Part shown: positions 51,422 to 60,412 of the stretch, in pieces | Numbering within the stretch: the stretch's first letter is position 1 | Layout: every line of letters begins with the position of its first letter | NCBI GenBank assembly: GCA_030765185.1 | Contig: JAVCDE010000031.1 | Location: 4,650-68,649, forward strand | DNA: 64,000 bases | Origin: Candidatus Aceula meridiana | GTDB taxonomy: Bacteria; Omnitrophota; Gorgyraeia; Zapsychrales; Aceulaceae | Reading direction: 5' to 3' | Program-made: the position numbers and the translations under genes | The notes under the pieces: model-generated | Seen by the model: the letters and a program-made list of their open reading frames with translations, nothing else | The model's database searches: none | What the model was told of the DNA's origin: nothing

Positions 51422-51493
51422 CTGCCCCGTCTGGACTCGAACCAGAATTACTTGATCCAGAGACAAGCGTGCTACCAATTGCACCACAGGGCA
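51422..51493 (-). tRNA. tRNA-Gln (anticodon CUG).
   Basis: U1-A72 first pair and G73 discriminator, typical of bacterial tRNA-Gln. Anticodon loop CUCUGGA, T-loop GGTTCGAGTCC. CCA is not encoded. Confidence 0.8.
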
Positions 51494-53459: not shown

Positions 53460-54239
53460 CTATAGCCTCCTTTGAATTCTTGTAATCTGGCTTGCCGTCC
53501 CTGTTTCATCAACAGTAATTACAGCACCACTTAAAGCAACATCGCCTTCTGCAACTTCAAACTTAGATGGCATGCTTGTTAAAAACCGTTGAATAATCTT
53601 TTCTTTATTTTGACCGATTACAGAATCAAACGGACCGGTCATTCCTAAATCAGTAAGATACGCAGTCCCTTTAGGCAAAATGCGCTCATCTGCTGTTTGC
53701 ACATGCGTATGTGTCCCAACAACAGCGGACACCTTCCCATCAGCAAAATGCCCTAGAGCAATTTTCTCGCTCGTTGCTTCGGCATGCATATCAACAATAA
53801 TAATGTTAGTGTGCTTCCTGGCCTGCTCTACCAATTGGTCTAGTGCTTTAAAAGGGCAATTAACATTATACCGTATAAAGACACGGCCTAAAAGATTTAT
53901 GATAGCTATTTTCTGGCCGTTGACTGTTTGCGTCAAACAAAGGCCCTGCCCCGGAGTTCCTTCAGGAAAGTTCGCAGGCCTCAAAAGTTTCGGATTGTCC
54001 TGTAGCGATTCTAAAAGTTCTTTTTTATCCCAGACATGATCCCCAGAAGTAAGAATATCGCAGCCGAAGCATAGCAGCTCTTCAGCTAATCGCGGAGTAA
54101 CTCCGGCGCCTGCGGCTGCATTTTCAGCATTGGCCACAACAAAATTAATTTTAAACTCCTCCTTAATTTTTGGAAGAAGCTCTTCAACGGCTTTGCGGCC
54201 GGGCTTACCGACGATATCTCCGATACATAAAATGTTCAT
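53460..54239 (-). CDS. ymdB: YmdB-like TIGR00282 metallophosphoesterase.
   Basis: N-terminus MNILCIGDIVGKPGR, and conserved linkage downstream of rny. Confidence 0.85.
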   Translation of the reverse strand: MNILCIGDIVGKPGRKAVEELLPKIKEEFKINFVVANAENAAAGAGVTPRLAEELLCFGCDILTSGDHVWDKKELLESLQDNPKLLRPANFPEGTPGQGLCLTQTVNGQKIAIINLLGRVFIRYNVNCPFKALDQLVEQARKHTNIIIVDMHAEATSEKIALGHFADGKVSAVVGTHTHVQTADERILPKGTAYLTDLGMTGPFDSVIGQNKEKIIQRFLTSMPSKFEVAEGDVALSGAVITVDETGTASQITRIQRRL

Positions 54240-54254
54240 AGTTTATCTGCTCGT

Positions 54255-55823
54255 CTATTTGGCATATTCTACGGCGCGTGTTTCACGAATGACAAGCACC
54301 TTTATCTGACCAGGATATTCCATGCTTCCTTCAATCTTTTTGCGAATATCTCGGGCTAGCACTAAAGAGGCCTCGTCTCCGACTTTGTTAGGTCTAACCA
54401 TTATGCGGACTTCTCGTCCGGCCTGAAGCGCATACGCTTTATCAATGCCTTTAAAAGAAGTCGCAATATTTTCTAAAGTCTCAATACGCTTAATATACGT
54501 TTCCATAGTTTCAGCACGTGCGCCAGGGCGAGCTGCGCTAATCGCATCAGCAGCTGCAACCAGAATTCCATAAATCGTCATCTCTGTTTCTTCGTGATGG
54601 CATTCAATGGCTTTAACAACTTCAGGAGCCTCTCCGAATTTACGAGCAATCTCTGCACCAATAATCGCATGAGGGCCTTCGACTTCAGAGCCGGCAACTT
54701 TTCCAATGTCATGTAAAAGGCCTGCACGTCGAGCTGTTTTAAAATCAAAATTAAGCTGTGATGCCATAATCCCCATCAAAGATGCTACTTCTTTAGAATG
54801 GCGAAGCGCATTTTGGCCAAAACTTGTACGATATTTTAACCGGCCAACAAGCTTAACCAATTCAGGGTGCATGGTATGAATTCCTAAATCAAAAATAGCT
54901 TGTTCGCCTTCTTCTTTAATCTTGGAATCAATTTCTTTCTTTACCTTCTCGACAACTTCTTCAATGCGTCCCGGATGAATACGCCCATCCTGGATAAGAC
55001 GCTCCAAAGAAATCTTGGCAATCTCCCGGCGCATCATATCAAACCCTGAAATCGTAACCGCTTCAGGGGTATCATCAATGATGATATCAACACCCGTTGC
55101 CATCTCAAAGGCGCGAATGTTGCGCCCTTCACGGCCGATAATACGTCCTTTCATTTCGTCTGACGGAAGATGAACAACGCTAATCGTCGTATCTCCGGCA
55201 TGGTCAGAAGCACAGCGATGAATTGCCGCTGAAATAATTTCTTTGGCTTTTTTATCAGCATCTTCTTTGAGCTGTTCTTCCATTTCACGAATGCGTCCTG
55301 CTTTTTCTCCAAGAATCTCATCGTCAATACGCGACAAGAGAAGGCTCTTAGCCTCTTCTGAGGTCATAGATGATATCTTTTGCAGCCTTTGCTTTTCTTC
55401 TTCAACAAGCTTTTGCAAGCTCTCTTTTTGTTTGCCGATATCTTCTTCTTTTTCATGAAGAGCATTGACGCGCCCTTCAACATCTTTTTCTTTCTTCTCT
55501 AAAAGGTCAACGCGCTTATCAAGATTTTCTTCTTTTTGTAAAATACGTTTTTCAGCAGCCGAGATCTCTTCTCGCCTTTCCTGAGTCTCCTTCTCAAATT
55601 TCTCGCGAAGATGAATTAACATATCACGGGATTTAATCTCCGCTTCTTTCATGGTGTTTTCAACTGAACGCTCAGTTTTTTCAATGAGCTCTTTTGCTTT
55701 TTGTTTGGCCCTGTGCAATCTTTTGCCAGAAAAAAACCGGCTTAAAAGATAGCCTGATAAAACAAGAAAAACACCTAAAATAGGATATCCAACGGTATAT
55801 AACAAAATATTTGATTTTTCCAT
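54255..55823 (-). CDS. rny: Ribonuclease Y.
   Basis: N-terminal TM helix, coiled coil, KH domain and HD domain (HDIGK). Confidence 0.9.
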
Positions 55824-56072: not shown

Positions 56073-56636
56073 CTAATTCCTAATGATAAAGGAAACAGAA
56101 ACGTCATGGTTCTCGACGCAAGGCAGGCAATCAACGACTTGGAAATCAAACGCCAAACCAATCTTTGGCGTGTTTTGAGGCAATGTTTTTAAAAAGCGGT
56201 CATAATAGCCTTCACCACGGCCCAATCGGTTACCCTTTTTATCAAAGGCAACCCCCGGCACAATAACTAAATCAATCGCACAAAGGTCACCTTTTTGCGC
56301 AGGATCTTCTTTAGGTTGTTTAATGCCGTATGGTCCATCAATTAAGCTCGTTTCTAAATTTGTAATCAGTGAAGGTATTATTTCTTTTTTTTCTTTTACC
56401 GTAATAGGTAATGCTATTTTTTTTCCAAGATTTTGTGCCTGCTTGATCATCTCAAGCGTTTCAACTTCTCCATCAAAAGCGCTGTAAAACATAATTATTT
56501 TGGCAGCGCGAAATTCCGGTGTTTTAAAAAGCGCAGCTTGAATAAGCTCGCTTTTTTTAAGCCTGATATCCTCCTTTTGGTTTCTTATCAGCTCCAAAAG
56601 CCTTTGCCGTAAGGCTTTTTTTGGATTATCTTTCAT
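56073..56636 (-). CDS. 5-formyltetrahydrofolate cyclo-ligase.
   Basis: PGVAFDKKGNRLGRGEGYYDR signature. Confidence 0.85.
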   Translation of the reverse strand: MKDNPKKALRQRLLELIRNQKEDIRLKKSELIQAALFKTPEFRAAKIIMFYSAFDGEVETLEMIKQAQNLGKKIALPITVKEKKEIIPSLITNLETSLIDGPYGIKQPKEDPAQKGDLCAIDLVIVPGVAFDKKGNRLGRGEGYYDRFLKTLPQNTPKIGLAFDFQVVDCLPCVENHDVSVSFIIRN

Positions 56637-56744
56637 AATAACACATCGTTTTCACTAAAACTTCAACCCTAAGATTGCGCTAACAAAAAAATGCGGTCTG
56701 GGCTGAGGGAGCATTTTACCATTTTTCGCTAAGATAGACAACCT

Positions 56745-56904
56745 AAAAATAAAACCCCGCGATTGCCGTTGGGGTTAGGTAACATGAACCGTATTTGTCA
56801 AGTGGGTGCTTCTCTAAAAAGCCCAAAGGCATTTTAGAAGGCAAGCTCCCGTATATACTGTGTTGGTTCAGTATAACTTGACCCTCAACGCACAACGCAG
56901 GGTT
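56745..56904 (-). ncRNA. Candidate small RNA (~160 nt) bounded by an extended -10 promoter and an intrinsic terminator. It is a 6S RNA (ssrS) candidate by synteny with the MTHFS gene.
   Basis: Minus-strand TGGTATAAT (rc of 56911-56919) lies right after the pheT stop. The terminator AACCCC-(12 nt)-GGGGUU plus UUAUUUUU ends at ~56745. The 5' ACAUUUAACC pairs with the 3' GGUUCAUGU as a closing stem. There is an internal 7-bp stem GUCAAGU/ACUUGAC with two nested hairpins and an asymmetric internal loop. Confidence 0.35.
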
Positions 56905-56957
56905 AAATGTATTATACCACAAGCGTCAACGCCTTAAAGCCTTAAACGTTCCTAAAA

Positions 56958-58985
56958 TTAACGCTTAATCGCATCAAGATCTGAAATAATTTTCTGGCAA
57001 ATCACCTGGTGGGCTTTTTCAACCTCTTGCTCTGTAAGAGTTCTCGTCCCAGATTGATAGGTCAAAGAAATAGTTATGCCGCGGCACCCTACAGGAACTT
57101 TTTCACCTAAATATTGCTCAACAAAAGAAACTTCCTTTAGCAAAGGCTCTTTTAAAAAATCAATAACGTCACAAACTTTTTGAAATGTGGAGTACTCTTT
57201 TACAGCTAAGCTAATATCTCTTACAACAGACGGGTAATCAGAAACTTTTTGGAATCGGCAAAGTTTTTGTTCTTTTTGATAAAGCGTCTCAATGTCTACC
57301 TCTGCATAAAAAACATCCTGATGTTTAATATCCCAACGCTCTAAAATATCGCTAGAAACCTTTCCTAAAAATCCAGATTTTTTTCCACCAATAAAAACAG
57401 CAGCTGACTGCCCAAAGACAAACGAAGCCTTCTTATCAAGCGAGTAATTTACATTTGTAATTTTAAGACGCTTTAAAACGCCATCTAAGGATCCCTTAAT
57501 ATCATAGAAATCAATCTTTTCTTTTAAACTACGCCAGTCCGCGTTTCTTTTCCCTGTCATGGCAACAATCAAAACATCTTTTTCTCCCGACGAAAAATAA
57601 TTCTTTCCAATCTCAAAAATCTTTAAATCCTTTTGCCCTTTTTTAAAATTTGTGGCAACAATGTTTAAAAAGCTTGGTAACGCAGACGGTCTTAAAATTT
57701 GCTGGTCTTCAGTTAAAGGATTTTGATTAATCACGCCTTGAGAAATATTTTGTTTAGTGTTCTCTAATGCTTTCAGACCTACCATCGTATACGATATAAC
57801 TTCGCTTAACCCTAAGCCTGTTGCTGCTTGTCTTAATTTTTCTTTAAAAATCCATCTCTTGCTTGTAGGAACATTTTCAGCTTTAATCTGAGCTAGCCGC
57901 ATCGGCAAATTATCATAGCCGATAATGCGGGCAATCTCTTCGGTTACATCCACGCCTATTTGAATGTCCTTTCGAAAAGACGGCGCGGTAACGAGCAAAG
58001 AATCCTTGCCACTTGATGAAACTTTAAACTCGAGCTTTGTTAAAATATTTTTAATGCGCGTTAAGGGAATGTTAGCGCCTAAAAAATTCTCAATCTGAGA
58101 CTTGCTAATCTTGATTTTCTTTTGTTTTTTATTTGCCTTAGCAGGATAAACATCTTTACGCGCATCTGCCTTGCCAAGCGCGAGCTCTTGAATAAGGTTG
58201 AGTGCCCGCCAGGCGGCTTGTTCTACCATATCAATATCTACGCCTCGTTCAAATCGGTAAGATGAGTCGCTTCTTAAGGCTAGTTTGCGAGACGCCCTGC
58301 GGATTAAAACAGGGTCAAAATAAGCACTTTCAAGCAAAATATTCTTAGTTTTTGAGGTAACTTCGGTTTTCTTGCCACCCATAACCCCTGCAATAGCTAC
58401 AGGCCTCTTAGCATCAGCAATAATAAGAATAGATGGGTCGAGCTCATATTCTACTTCGTCAATTGCAACAATCTTCTCTCCTTTTTTAGCGCGCCGCACA
58501 ATAATCTTTCCACCTTCAAGCTTGTCATAATCAAAAGCATGCATCGGTTGACCGGTTTCCATCAGACAAAAATTTGTAATGTCTACAATGTTATTAATGG
58601 GACGCAAGCCAAGGGCGCTTAACTTTTTTTGTAAAAAAGAGGGTGATTGTGCGATTTTGACATCTGTCAAAATCGCACCAATATACCTTCCGCAATCTTT
58701 TTTGTTCTCAATAGAAATCGCGCACTTACTTTTACTAAACTTAATTCTTTTAATTTTTGGTTTTTTAAAAGGCTTATTTAAAATCGCAGATATTTCTCTT
58801 GCCATACCAATCATGTTAAGACAATCCGGTCGGTTGGGTGTAATCTCGAGCTCAAAAACAATATCGCCCCCGACGAGCTCTTCTTTCTCAACCTCAGAAC
58901 CAGACAGAGTGAGTTTATGCGCTAACGCCGCTGGCGTTAGCGCGAAACTGACATAATCTTTTAACCAGCTTAAGGATATTCTCAT
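56958..58985 (-). CDS. pheT: Phenylalanine--tRNA ligase beta subunit (short form).
   Basis: MRISLSWLKDYV start, with B3/4, B5 and class II core-like domains. Confidence 0.85.
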   Translation of the reverse strand: MRISLSWLKDYVSFALTPAALAHKLTLSGSEVEKEELVGGDIVFELEITPNRPDCLNMIGMAREISAILNKPFKKPKIKRIKFSKSKCAISIENKKDCGRYIGAILTDVKIAQSPSFLQKKLSALGLRPINNIVDITNFCLMETGQPMHAFDYDKLEGGKIIVRRAKKGEKIVAIDEVEYELDPSILIIADAKRPVAIAGVMGGKKTEVTSKTKNILLESAYFDPVLIRRASRKLALRSDSSYRFERGVDIDMVEQAAWRALNLIQELALGKADARKDVYPAKANKKQKKIKISKSQIENFLGANIPLTRIKNILTKLEFKVSSSGKDSLLVTAPSFRKDIQIGVDVTEEIARIIGYDNLPMRLAQIKAENVPTSKRWIFKEKLRQAATGLGLSEVISYTMVGLKALENTKQNISQGVINQNPLTEDQQILRPSALPSFLNIVATNFKKGQKDLKIFEIGKNYFSSGEKDVLIVAMTGKRNADWRSLKEKIDFYDIKGSLDGVLKRLKITNVNYSLDKKASFVFGQSAAVFIGGKKSGFLGKVSSDILERWDIKHQDVFYAEVDIETLYQKEQKLCRFQKVSDYPSVVRDISLAVKEYSTFQKVCDVIDFLKEPLLKEVSFVEQYLGEKVPVGCRGITISLTYQSGTRTLTEQEVEKAHQVICQKIISDLDAIKR

Positions 58986-59119: not shown

Positions 59120-60412
59120 TTATAGCTCCTGCTGAGGGCTACCAGCACAAGACTGGCTCCAGTCACCATGGACTTGGAACCAGTACCAAGTGGTGCCTCC
59201 ATCTGTGGTAGAGCAAATTCTCAAGGTAGACGCGTTAACGCTTCCACCGCCAAAGCAACTATAATTCACAAATGGGGTAAACTTCATCGTTCCAGCCAAT
59301 GCTGCTGTACAAACTCCCGGGTTTTCGCTTCCAACTTTAATAGCACCATTAACATCTAAAGACACTACAGGGGTACTTCTGTTAATTCCGACGCGTCCTT
59401 TATGAGCAGCGTCATCTCCTCCAACTTGCAACGCTGCCGAAGACTGATCTGTCGGAATTCCTGTCCGTATCCCGAGCTTACCACCAATAGTGGCTGTAGC
59501 ATAAAGGTCTCCAGTAACTTCAAGATTGTCAGGACGCGATGCCCCATTGTAGAAAGAATTGTACCCCGGGATAGTAACATTCCCATCGCTGCTAACTAAA
59601 ACGCCTTCGTTTCCGCCATCTCCGGATAAATATCCTCCGTTTAATGCAATGTTTCCACTCTCCATCTCAACATCTCCTCGAAAATAAGCTGCAGATCCAG
59701 TGGCGTCTCCTGTGGTTGCAAAAAGGCCAATATTGCCAGCAGGCAAAGAAGTCCCCCTATCGGTTGCCGCGGCAACAAAAGCAGGCAAGCCATTAAGCCC
59801 TGAACCAACAAACGCAGAAGGATATTTCCCTCCAACCGGGATAAGCTCAATTCCTGTCGGGTTGACTTCAAAAAGAGAGTCAGGATCTAATTTTTTAATC
59901 CCGACACTTCCATTAACATAAAGATTAACATTTGATAAATCGTCATTAGGAATAGTGCCACCGATTCCTACAGGATTTCCAAAAAAATTCTGAACACCTG
60001 CGGATCTTTCTTCATAAATACCAAAACCGGGATCACTCGCAGGAAATCCTATAGGAGTGCTTGCTGAAAGATAAAGAGCTCCGTCTCCGATTCCAGAAGG
60101 ATCTATTACTGCGCTCCCTCCTTGTGCAACCTGCATAGCCCAGCTATCGTTTGTGGCCCCTGTAAAATAAAACTTAGATAAGACTCCAGACATAGCGTTA
60201 TCCTCTTTTACATAAAGCTTGCGGACTTTATTTAAATCAACAGTATCATCTGTCCCGACACCAAGCTTTTCCATAACCCTCATATCTTGATACTTTCCAA
60301 AAGGTGCCGGGTAATAAGTTGTTAGAGTTACAGATCCCTGAGCAAAGACTAGCGTTGCGCTAGCTACGCCGGCAAAAACGAACAGTCCTAAAGAAATTAA
60401 TGTTTTTTTCAT
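59120..60412 (-). CDS. Secreted glycine-rich, beta-rich hypothetical protein (possible surface/fibre-like protein) inserted between pheS and pheT.
   Basis: Signal peptide (ASATLVFAQG), >20% Gly with irregular G-x-G repeats, Cys pairs at the C-terminus, and no TM segment. Confidence 0.5.
   Translation of the reverse strand: MKKTLISLGLFVFAGVASATLVFAQGSVTLTTYYPAPFGKYQDMRVMEKLGVGTDDTVDLNKVRKLYVKEDNAMSGVLSKFYFTGATNDSWAMQVAQGGSAVIDPSGIGDGALYLSASTPIGFPASDPGFGIYEERSAGVQNFFGNPVGIGGTIPNDDLSNVNLYVNGSVGIKKLDPDSLFEVNPTGIELIPVGGKYPSAFVGSGLNGLPAFVAAATDRGTSLPAGNIGLFATTGDATGSAAYFRGDVEMESGNIALNGGYLSGDGGNEGVLVSSDGNVTIPGYNSFYNGASRPDNLEVTGDLYATATIGGKLGIRTGIPTDQSSAALQVGGDDAAHKGRVGINRSTPVVSLDVNGAIKVGSENPGVCTAALAGTMKFTPFVNYSCFGGGSVNASTLRICSTTDGGTTWYWFQVHGDWSQSCAGSPQQEL

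What the first reader, a model, noticed from the sequence alone, without database searches (positions are those of the whole stretch)
56637..56957. Promoter- and terminator-bounded sRNA candidate immediately upstream of the 5-formyl-THF cyclo-ligase gene, the position held by 6S RNA in E. coli.
In E. coli, ssrS (6S RNA) is co-transcribed with and directly precedes ygfA, the 5-formyltetrahydrofolate cyclo-ligase gene. Here the 320-bp gap between pheT and that gene contains a minus-strand extended -10 (TGGTATAAT). About 160 nt downstream of it is a hairpin plus UUAUUUUU terminator. Within that span the 5' end (ACAUUUAACC) pairs with sequence just before the terminator (GGUUCAUGU). There is an asymmetric internal loop, an internal 7-bp helix, and nested hairpins. 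This is consistent with a stable structured RNA, although it is not an obvious canonical 6S rod.
Basis: partly seen in the sequence, partly recalled or inferred. Interest (0 to 1): 0.6.

Follow-up and report, generated by a model that had tools for sequence, protein, structure and literature searches.

The report
Ordinary 6S RNA gene (ssrS)
The candidate small RNA between pheT and the 5-formyl-THF cyclo-ligase gene is a standard 6S RNA, the widespread bacterial RNA that binds RNA polymerase by mimicking an open promoter; it is a correct but routine annotation in a probable Omnitrophota genome.

Summary
The Rfam 6S/SsrS model (RF00013) matches window 56750-56906 (minus strand) end to end at 75.6 bits, against a curated threshold of 46.4 (E 4e-13). 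E. coli's own ssrS scores 139.8. Homologues were recovered from Omnitrophota-type genomes and metagenomes. In 71 distinct sequences, 91.7% of cells in the 6S rod form pairs, and 30 of 49 pairs show compensatory changes. No shuffle reached these values, and slid-register controls gave 41-48%. The parts are canonical: a closing stem, a 14/13-nt central bubble flanked by invariant C-G/C-G and G-C/G-C pairs, and an apical hairpin arm. GGUUCA pairs with UGAACC, not with the 5' end. The "terminator hairpin" is the 3' strand of the closing stem followed by a U tract. The extended -10 box and the U tract are both conserved in relatives (59 and 58 of 72). Gene order in relatives is pheT-6S-(rarA...)-ygfA-rny-ymdB. 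The window simply lacks the inserted genes, so its order looks like E. coli's ssrS-ygfA. Function (RNA polymerase sequestration, release by product-RNA synthesis) is inferred from family membership. Interest is low: this is an already known kind of RNA.

The parts
56911..56919 (-). Extended -10 promoter element TGGTATAAT; there is no good -35 at 16-18 nt spacing.
   Evidence: Read from the sequence; exact motif match. TGnTAnnnT lies upstream of 59 of 72 homologues, usually 26-35 nt before CCCUGC. It is only 8 nt before CCCUGC here and in L161. Promoter function is inferred.
56750..56906 (-). 6S RNA gene (ssrS), as bounded by the Rfam RF00013 match. The likely transcript is about 56904 (predicted start, 7 nt after the -10) to about 56745-56750 (within the U tract), roughly 155-160 nt.
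   Evidence: RF00013 75.6 bits against GA 46.4, model positions 1-187 of 187. Own model R1 scores 142 bits on the minus strand and 47 on the plus strand. MFE z = -5.8. Transcript ends are inferred, not measured.
56881..56904 (-). 5' strand of the closing stem (AACCCUGCGUUGUGCGUUGAGGGU).
   Evidence: Rfam alignment. Helices 1-2 are 94% paired with 9 compensatory pairs in 71 sequences. Coordinates.
56865..56870 (-). 5' strand of helix P2 (UGAACC), the helix next to the bubble on the closing-stem side. It ends in two invariant C-G pairs.
   Evidence: Paired in 54 of 54 cells in the 9 homologues found independently of any DNA pattern, with A-U to G-U variation.
56851..56864 (-). 5' strand of the central bubble (AACACAGUAUAUAC). 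The predicted product-RNA template start is C at 56862, by alignment with E. coli U44.
   Evidence: Unpaired in the consensus structure. The AACAC start is conserved in most of 72 homologues. Alignment of the window and E. coli to the same Rfam model. The start site is inferred.
56804..56850 (-). Apical (internal) arm, beginning with two invariant G-C pairs (GG/CC) and ending in a hairpin.
   Evidence: Helices 5-6 have 16 of 18 pairs with compensatory changes in 71 sequences. Coordinates.
56791..56803 (-). 3' strand of the central bubble (ACUUGACAAAUAC). It lacks the AACC motif that most relatives carry here.
   Evidence: No hairpin forms in the 3' bubble strand of the window RNA in the product-RNA-mimic fold, unlike 50 of 72 homologues.
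56785..56790 (-). 3' strand of helix P2 (GGUUCA).
56753..56775 (-). 3' strand of the closing stem (ACCCCAACGGCAAUCGCGGGGUU).
   Evidence: The local hairpin alone gives -8.9 kcal/mol, z = -0.54.
56745..56754 (-). U tract UUUUAUUUUU directly after the closing stem; the likely 3'-end or termination signal.
   Evidence: Sequence. At least 6 U in the 10 nt after the stem in 58 of 72 homologues. Termination is inferred.
56713..56741 (-). Second promoter-like site (TTGTCT, 17 nt, TGgTAAAAT) between the 6S gene and the cyclo-ligase gene.
   Evidence: Consensus scan only: 1 site found against 3.5 expected in the region, so weak evidence.
56073..56636 (-). 5-formyltetrahydrofolate cyclo-ligase gene (ygfA/fau), the downstream neighbour.
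   Evidence: PF01812 E 1e-45; TIGR02727 161 bits against a cut-off of 84.9.
56958..58985 (-). pheT, the upstream neighbour and the conserved anchor of 6S in this lineage.
   Evidence: TIGR00472 630 bits. pheT directly precedes 6S in most related loci.

Best explanation
Window 56750-56906 (minus strand) is the ssrS gene for a canonical 6S RNA of a probable Candidatus Omnitrophota bacterium.

Shown here:
- It matches the curated 6S covariance model end to end.
- It has the family's rod architecture: closing stem, central bubble of 14 and 13 unpaired nt bounded by two invariant G-C pairs on each side, and an apical arm.
- That structure is maintained by compensatory substitutions across more than 70 homologues.
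- It sits in a conserved same-strand neighbourhood, pheT-6S-...-ygfA-rny-ymdB.

Inferred from sequence and conservation:
- Transcription starts at about A56904 from an extended -10 promoter (TGGTATAAT).
- The RNA ends in the U tract that follows the G+C-rich base of the closing stem. The primary transcript of about 155-160 nt would then be close to the mature RNA.
- Some read-through into the cyclo-ligase gene is possible, and that gene may also have its own promoter.

Inferred from established knowledge of the 6S family (E. coli, B. subtilis):
- The RNA binds the housekeeping sigma-70-type RNA polymerase holoenzyme as an open-promoter mimic and sequesters it when growth slows.
- It is released when the polymerase uses the 5' bubble strand as a template for a short product RNA (pRNA). 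By alignment with E. coli U44 this would start at C56862 and read 5'-GUUGGUUCAG.... The pRNA unzips helix P2 and refolds the RNA.
For: - RF00013 match: 75.6 bits against GA 46.4, E 4e-13, model 1-187 of 187, the only 6S hit in 64 kb. E. coli ssrS scores 139.8 on the same model.
- Fold: z = -5.8.
- Nine homologues were found through the neighbouring protein gene plus Rfam or the R1 model. They give 44 pairs, 90.7% paired, 21 pairs with compensatory changes, 0 of 500 shuffles as good, and slid controls of 41-48%.
- 71 distinct homologues give 91.7% paired, 30 of 49 pairs and 444 cells with double changes, and a covariation score of 0.350 against 0.131 for shuffles and at most 0.091 for slid registers.
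- Bubble-flanking pairs are invariant: CC/GG and GG/CC. This is the feature quoted for 6S in PMC4064990.
- Strand: the minus strand scores 142 bits and the plus strand 47 with R1.
- Promoter and U tract are conserved in 59 and 58 of 72 homologues.
- Synteny.
- Mechanistic background: PMC8876501 and PMC4227106.
Against: - There is no expression, end-mapping or RNA polymerase-binding data for this RNA or for any Omnitrophota 6S.
- The thermodynamic MFE of the window RNA is not the canonical fold. It contains a 7-bp hairpin in the 5' strand and no helix P2; the canonical fold is 1 kcal/mol higher.
- With the product-RNA template strand blocked, the window RNA forms no hairpin in its 3' bubble strand, unlike 50 of 72 homologues. 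The release step is therefore less clear here.
- In the large alignment the blocks CCCUGC, UGARCCA and GGUUCA are invariant by construction of the search pattern, so only the other helices give independent covariation there.
- The TGNTATAAT motif by itself is not enriched in the window.
Confidence: 0.95

Rival explanations
1. The structured region is not a free-standing regulatory RNA. It is only a cis-acting 5' leader of the cyclo-ligase mRNA, for example a stabiliser or attenuator.
For: It lies 113 nt upstream of the cyclo-ligase start on the same strand. In E. coli, ssrS and ygfA are co-transcribed (reference list entry Chae et al. 2011, seen). Read-through of the U tract cannot be excluded.
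Against: The same RNA is conserved in 72 related loci where the next gene is rarA, an MTHFR_C-domain gene or rny, not ygfA, so it is not tied to that mRNA. It matches the trans-acting 6S family model. A U tract follows it in 58 of 72 homologues.
Confidence: 0.03
2. It is a 6S-like paralogue with non-canonical behaviour, comparable to B. subtilis 6S-2 or to Ms1-type RNAs that bind core polymerase. A second, canonical 6S would then lie elsewhere in the genome.
For: Only 64 kb of the genome is visible. The window RNA lacks the hairpin potential in the 3' bubble strand that most relatives have, and its MFE is an alternative fold.
Against: It occupies the same pheT-linked locus as the other homologues, so it is their orthologue. 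No other RNA family matched the region on this strand at E below 1. It has a full-length match and all the structural hallmarks of 6S.
Confidence: 0.04
3. The region encodes the 59-aa ORF at 56743-56922 (minus strand, TTG start), and the RNA structure is incidental.
For: An uninterrupted frame spans the region in the window.
Against: The ORF has no Pfam hit. The corresponding reading offset carries 1-5 stop codons in all 8 genome-derived homologues, and no offset is open in more than one of them. Its TTG start lies upstream of the -10 box. Substitutions follow base-pairing, not codon logic.
Confidence: 0.01

Closest known systems
E. coli 6S RNA (ssrS, b2911), Rfam RF00013
   Same: - Same family model and same rod architecture, with shared motifs CUGA(G/A)CC, CCCAC(C/U)UG and GGUUCA.
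- It lies directly upstream of, and on the same strand as, the 5-formyl-THF cyclo-ligase gene.
- Most relatives of the window RNA can form an E. coli-type hairpin between the 3' bubble strand and the freed 3' strand of P2 (concept from PMC8876501).
   Different: - It is shorter (157 against 183 nt) and has a shorter apical arm; it scores 75.6 against 139.8 bits.
- The upstream neighbour is pheT, not zapA.
- The 3' end is followed by a U tract, whereas E. coli ssrS is reported to use Rho-dependent termination and nuclease processing (title of Chae et al. 2011; otherwise my own knowledge).
- The window RNA itself lacks the hairpin potential in the 3' bubble strand.
- The predicted product RNA would start with G, not A.
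Aquifex aeolicus 6S RNA and B. subtilis 6S-1 RNA
   Same: - A. aeolicus 6S is listed next to pheT, as here (PMC4227106).
- Product RNAs that start with G are proposed for the Aquificaceae (A. aeolicus's family) in PMC4227106; for B. subtilis 6S-1 RNA, G initiation rests on my own knowledge.
- Release in these RNAs does not depend on an extended hairpin in the 3' bubble strand (PMC8876501). That may be the better analogy for the window RNA.
   Different: No convincing 'central bubble collapse helix' was found in the window RNA in constrained folding. There is no experimental data for this lineage.
6S genes of Omnitrophota-type MAGs and metagenome contigs (L003, L010, L016, L020, L161 and others)
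   Same: They are orthologues: 84-161 bits with model R1 for the rarA-type loci, pheT directly upstream, an extended -10 promoter and a U tract after the closing stem.
   Different: - In nearly all of them rarA (with or without other genes, MTHFR_C and NifU) lies between 6S and ygfA, or 6S directly precedes rny. None of 74 metagenome loci has 6S directly before ygfA.
- Their -10 box is usually 26-35 nt from the stem, implying a 5' leader. The distance is 8 nt in the window and in L161.

Membership tests
6S / SsrS RNA (Rfam RF00013) | Scores at or above the curated gathering threshold of the family covariance model over its full length. | tested here: met
   75.6 bits against 46.4, model positions 1-187 of 187, E 4e-13.
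6S / SsrS RNA (Rfam RF00013) | Rod-shaped secondary structure of closing stem, large central bubble and apical stem-loop, maintained in evolution. | tested here: met
   RNAalifold consensus on 6 and on 9 sequences. 90.7-91.7% of cells are paired, 21 of 44 and 30 of 49 pairs have compensatory changes, and both controls are far lower.
6S / SsrS RNA (Rfam RF00013) | Two conserved G-C pairs bordering the central bubble on each side (as quoted from Barrick et al. 2005 in PMC4064990). | tested here: met
   C-G/C-G at the end of P2 and G-C/G-C at the start of the apical arm are invariant in 9 of 9 independently found homologues.
6S / SsrS RNA (Rfam RF00013) | Size of roughly 150-200 nt and expression as a discrete abundant transcript. 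| not testable with these tools
   The predicted length of about 157 nt fits. No transcript data are available.
6S / SsrS RNA (Rfam RF00013) | Binds the housekeeping sigma-70/sigma-A RNA polymerase holoenzyme. | not testable with these tools
   Inferred from family membership only.
6S / SsrS RNA (Rfam RF00013) | Serves as a template for product-RNA synthesis from the 5' bubble strand, which refolds the RNA (3'-bubble hairpin or central bubble collapse helix) and releases the polymerase. | tested here: inconclusive
   The site homologous to E. coli U44 is C56862, within a conserved AACAC. The constrained fold gives a hairpin in the 3' bubble strand in 50 of 72 homologues but not in the window RNA. 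These are in silico results only.
6S / SsrS RNA (Rfam RF00013) | Linkage to ygfA (supportive, not defining; reported as conserved in gamma-proteobacteria and many other bacteria). | tested here: met
   The window has 6S 113 nt upstream of the cyclo-ligase gene. E. coli has the same order, as do L060 and L068. In Omnitrophota relatives other genes are inserted between them.
Intrinsic (Rho-independent) terminator | A short G+C-rich hairpin (loop 3-8 nt) followed immediately by a U run. | tested here: inconclusive
   A U run is present and conserved. The scan reports no terminator here, and the local hairpin is no better than shuffles (z = -0.54). The stem preceding the U run is the base of the whole 6S rod.

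The most novel reading that the evidence does not exclude
In this Omnitrophota lineage the 6S rod may itself act as the terminator hairpin, with the G+C-rich base of the closing stem followed by a U tract. In the window variant the promoter abuts the stem, so the primary transcript would already be the mature 6S RNA with no nuclease processing. The RNA would sit between two nearly isoenergetic folds (canonical open bubble, or a 5'-strand hairpin without P2). Having lost the hairpin potential in its 3' bubble strand, it would be released from the polymerase by a route different from that of its relatives.
Probability: 0.3. Interest if true: 0.25.

Novelty: already known. Interest (0 to 1): 0.12.

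Why it matters
It matters mainly for annotation. The 321-bp 'intergenic' gap holds a real, conserved RNA gene, and the 59-aa ORF over it should not be called. It also documents that the largely uncultured Omnitrophota carry a standard 6S RNA, in a stable pheT-6S...ygfA-rny-ymdB neighbourhood with its own extended -10 promoter and U-tract end. No paper in the searched library mentions 6S RNA together with this phylum. This adds no new biology beyond the known 6S paradigm.

Tried and rejected
- Coding potential of the 59-aa ORF: rejected.
- Other RNA families: with permissive thresholds, the only other match was Hrs1 on the opposite strand at 19 bits against a gathering score of 56.4, which is noise.
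- Plus-strand reading of the RNA: rejected (47 against 142 bits).
- Sigma-70 scan with a -35 requirement: it did not report the 6S promoter, because there is no good -35. It reported only a weak site downstream of the 6S gene.
- Looking up the source contig by exact protein match gave only a 672-bp ENA contig, which was uninformative.
- Barrick et al. 2005 (PMC1370762) is not held in the library. Its criteria were taken second-hand from PMC4064990.
- MAFFT-based 'consensus enforced' energies were distorted by misaligned apical hairpins and were not used.
- The closest ygfA relatives (L001, L002) have too little upstream DNA to show their 6S gene.

Full report
**What is at the coordinates.** The interval 56637-56957 is the gap between two minus-strand genes.
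- Upstream is pheT (56958-58985; TIGR00472 630 bits).
- Downstream is a 5-formyltetrahydrofolate cyclo-ligase gene (56073-56636; PF01812 E 1e-45; TIGR02727 161 bits against a cut-off of 84.9).
- Further downstream on the same strand are RNase Y (54255-55823) and a YmdB-family phosphoesterase (53460-54239).

**Family assignment.**
- A scan of the whole 64-kb window against Rfam 15 at curated thresholds gave two hits. One is a tRNA. The other is RF00013 (6S/SsrS RNA) at 56750-56906 on the minus strand: 75.6 bits against a gathering score of 46.4, E 4e-13, covering model positions 1-187 of 187.
- A permissive rescan of the gap found nothing else credible. The only other match was Hrs1 on the opposite strand at 19 bits against a threshold of 56.
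- E. coli MG1655's own ssrS scores 139.8 bits on the same model.
- The 157-nt RNA folds at -61.5 kcal/mol. Shuffles average -38.1, giving z = -5.8.

**Relatives and organism.**
- A search of one genome per species with the cyclo-ligase protein returned mostly Candidatus Omnitrophota MAGs, at no more than 57% identity. The window therefore probably comes from that phylum.
- Rfam and a model built here (R1) found 6S in L003, L004, L010, L016, L017, L020, L031, L038 and L034.
- A DNA-pattern scan of metagenome contigs added about 70 more.

**Structure and covariation.**
- RNAalifold on 6 and on 9 sequences predicts the classical 6S rod.
- In window coordinates the parts are:
  - closing stem: 56881-56904 with 56753-56775
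  - helix P2: UGAACC at 56865-56870 with GGUUCA at 56785-56790
  - central bubble: 14 nt at 56851-56864 and 13 nt at 56791-56803
  - apical arm: 56804-56850
- The bubble is bordered by two invariant C-G pairs on one side and two invariant G-C pairs on the other. PMC4064990 quotes this feature, from Barrick et al. 2005, as typical of 6S.
- On the nine homologues found independently of any DNA pattern, 90.7% of cells pair and 21 of 44 pairs carry compensatory changes. No shuffle out of 500 reaches any measure, and sliding the partners by 1-3 columns drops pairing to 41-48%.
- On 71 distinct sequences, 91.7% of cells pair, and 30 of 49 pairs and 444 cells have double changes. The covariation score is 0.350, against 0.131 for shuffles and at most 0.091 for slid registers.
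- One caveat applies to the large set. The blocks CCCUGC, UGARCCA and GGUUCA were fixed by the search pattern, and the alignment was fitted to the model. The independent signal comes from helices 2, 3, 5 and 6 and from the nine-sequence set.

- Right: there is a discrete structured RNA in the 6S position, with TGGTATAAT at 56919-56911 and a U tract about 155-160 nt downstream.
- Wrong: the helices.
In relatives the second A of AACC is U, which gives U-U in 8 of 9.
  - The 6S pairings hold instead: UGAACC/GGUUCA in 54 of 54 cells and AACCCUGC/GCGGGGUU in 71 of 72. One position switches A-U to U-A between the window and its relatives.
  - The 'terminator hairpin' scores -8.9 kcal/mol with z = -0.54, and the terminator scan does not call it. 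Its 3' arm is the 3' strand of the closing stem.
  - The 'internal 7-bp helix' is probably UAUACUG/CAGUAUA. It appears in the single-sequence MFE and competes with P2. The canonical fold is only 1 kcal/mol higher.

**Transcription signals (inferred).**
- TGNTATAAT is not enriched in the window as a whole: 4 matches against 2.4 expected.
- However, 59 of 72 homologues carry TGnTAnnnT (mostly TGnTATACT) upstream of the RNA, often with a good -35.
- In most homologues the -10 ends 26-35 nt before CCCUGC, which implies a short 5' leader. In the window and in L161 the distance is 8 nt. This puts the predicted start at about A56904, the first paired base of the closing stem.
- 58 of 72 homologues have at least 6 U in the 10 nt after the closing stem; the window has UUUUAUUUUU.
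- The simplest reading is that the G+C-rich base of the rod plus the U tract ends the transcript.
- A weak promoter-like site (TTGTCT, 17 nt, TGgTAAAAT; 56741-56713) lies between the 6S gene and the cyclo-ligase gene.

**Gene neighbourhood.**
- E. coli has zapA-ssrS-fau(ygfA).
- L068 (a Coxiella endosymbiont) has 6S directly before ygfA. L060 (a Deltaproteobacteria MAG) has 6S-ygfA-rny-ymdB, as in the window.
- In the Omnitrophota-type loci the backbone is pheT-6S-[rarA/MgsA]-[...]-[MTHFR_C domain gene-NifU]-ygfA-rny-ymdB, all on one strand.
- A divergent subgroup has 6S directly before rny and lacks both the extended -10 and the U tract.
- None of the 74 metagenome loci has 6S directly before ygfA. 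The window looks like E. coli only because the intervening genes are absent.
- pheT is the more stable anchor, and A. aeolicus 6S is also listed next to pheT (PMC4227106).

**How it most likely works.**
- By membership in the 6S family, the RNA should bind the housekeeping sigma-70-type holoenzyme as an open-promoter mimic. It should be released when the enzyme transcribes a short product RNA from the 5' bubble strand, unwinding P2 (PMC8876501; PMC4227106).
- Aligning the window and E. coli to the same model places E. coli's start site U44 opposite C56862, within a conserved AACAC. The predicted product RNA is 5'-GUUGGUUCAG....
- Blocking that template strand in silico makes 50 of 72 homologues form an E. 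coli-type hairpin between the 3' bubble strand and the freed GGUUCA strand. The window RNA does not, because its 3' bubble strand lacks the AACC motif.
- None of this is shown experimentally.

**Alternatives.**
- The 59-aa ORF over the RNA has no family hit and is interrupted by stop codons in all eight genome-derived homologues.
- A purely cis-acting leader role is unlikely, because the same RNA precedes different genes in relatives.
- A second 6S copy elsewhere in the genome cannot be excluded from 64 kb.

**Verdict.** This is a correctly spotted, standard 6S RNA gene. It is detectable with the family's own model well above threshold. It is already known in kind and of low interest beyond annotation. 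No paper in the searched library mentions 6S RNA together with Omnitrophota.

Noticed in passing
window 56958-58985 (-) and 59120-60412 (-): pheT is only 675 aa and matches the bacterial pheT model from profile position 158 onward, so the N-terminal part of about 150 aa seems absent. The next gene upstream (430 aa), where pheS is often found, has no Pfam or NCBIfam hit.
   Followed up: no
window 56713-56741 (-): A promoter-like site (TTGTCT, 17 nt, TGgTAAAAT) lies between the 6S 3' end and the cyclo-ligase start codon. The downstream gene may have its own promoter in addition to any read-through.
   Followed up: no
L083-L162 and L003-L038 (related loci): The conserved same-strand backbone is pheT-6S-[rarA]-[...]-[MTHFR_C domain gene-NifU]-ygfA-rny-ymdB. 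The genes between 6S and ygfA vary by lineage. A divergent subgroup (L105, L108, L113, L114, L117, L119, L121, L125, L133, L143, L144, L154, L156) has 6S directly before rny. The nine of these included in the count (score at least 60 bits) lack both the extended -10 box and the U tract; the other four were not checked.
   Followed up: partly
72 homologues (alignment A4), including window 56750-56906: In 32 of 72 homologues, including the window, the predicted MFE lacks helix P2 and instead has hairpins within the bubble strands. The arms of the 5'-strand hairpin differ in sequence between homologues (UAUACUG/CAGUAUA, AUUGGUG/CACCAAU, UUGUUG/CAACAA). This hints at a selected alternative conformation.
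   Followed up: partly
window 56911-56919 and L161: Only the window and L161 have the extended -10 box 8 nt from the closing stem. In the other homologues that have the motif it lies 17-42 nt away (mostly 26-35 nt), implying a 5' leader that is either retained or processed.
   Followed up: partly
L060 2018-2105 (-): A TPP riboswitch lies on the opposite strand just upstream of the 6S gene in a Deltaproteobacteria MAG whose 6S-ygfA-rny-ymdB order matches the window.
   Followed up: no
window 51422-51493 (-): A tRNA gene (Rfam tRNA, 60 bits) is the only other Rfam hit in the window.
   Followed up: no
L001 20-1186 (+): In the closest cyclo-ligase relative, a 388-aa ORF with no Pfam hit lies directly upstream of ygfA with only about 80 bp between them, so there is no room for a 6S gene there. 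tblastn with the window's 430-aa ORF as query found no match in L001.
   Followed up: no
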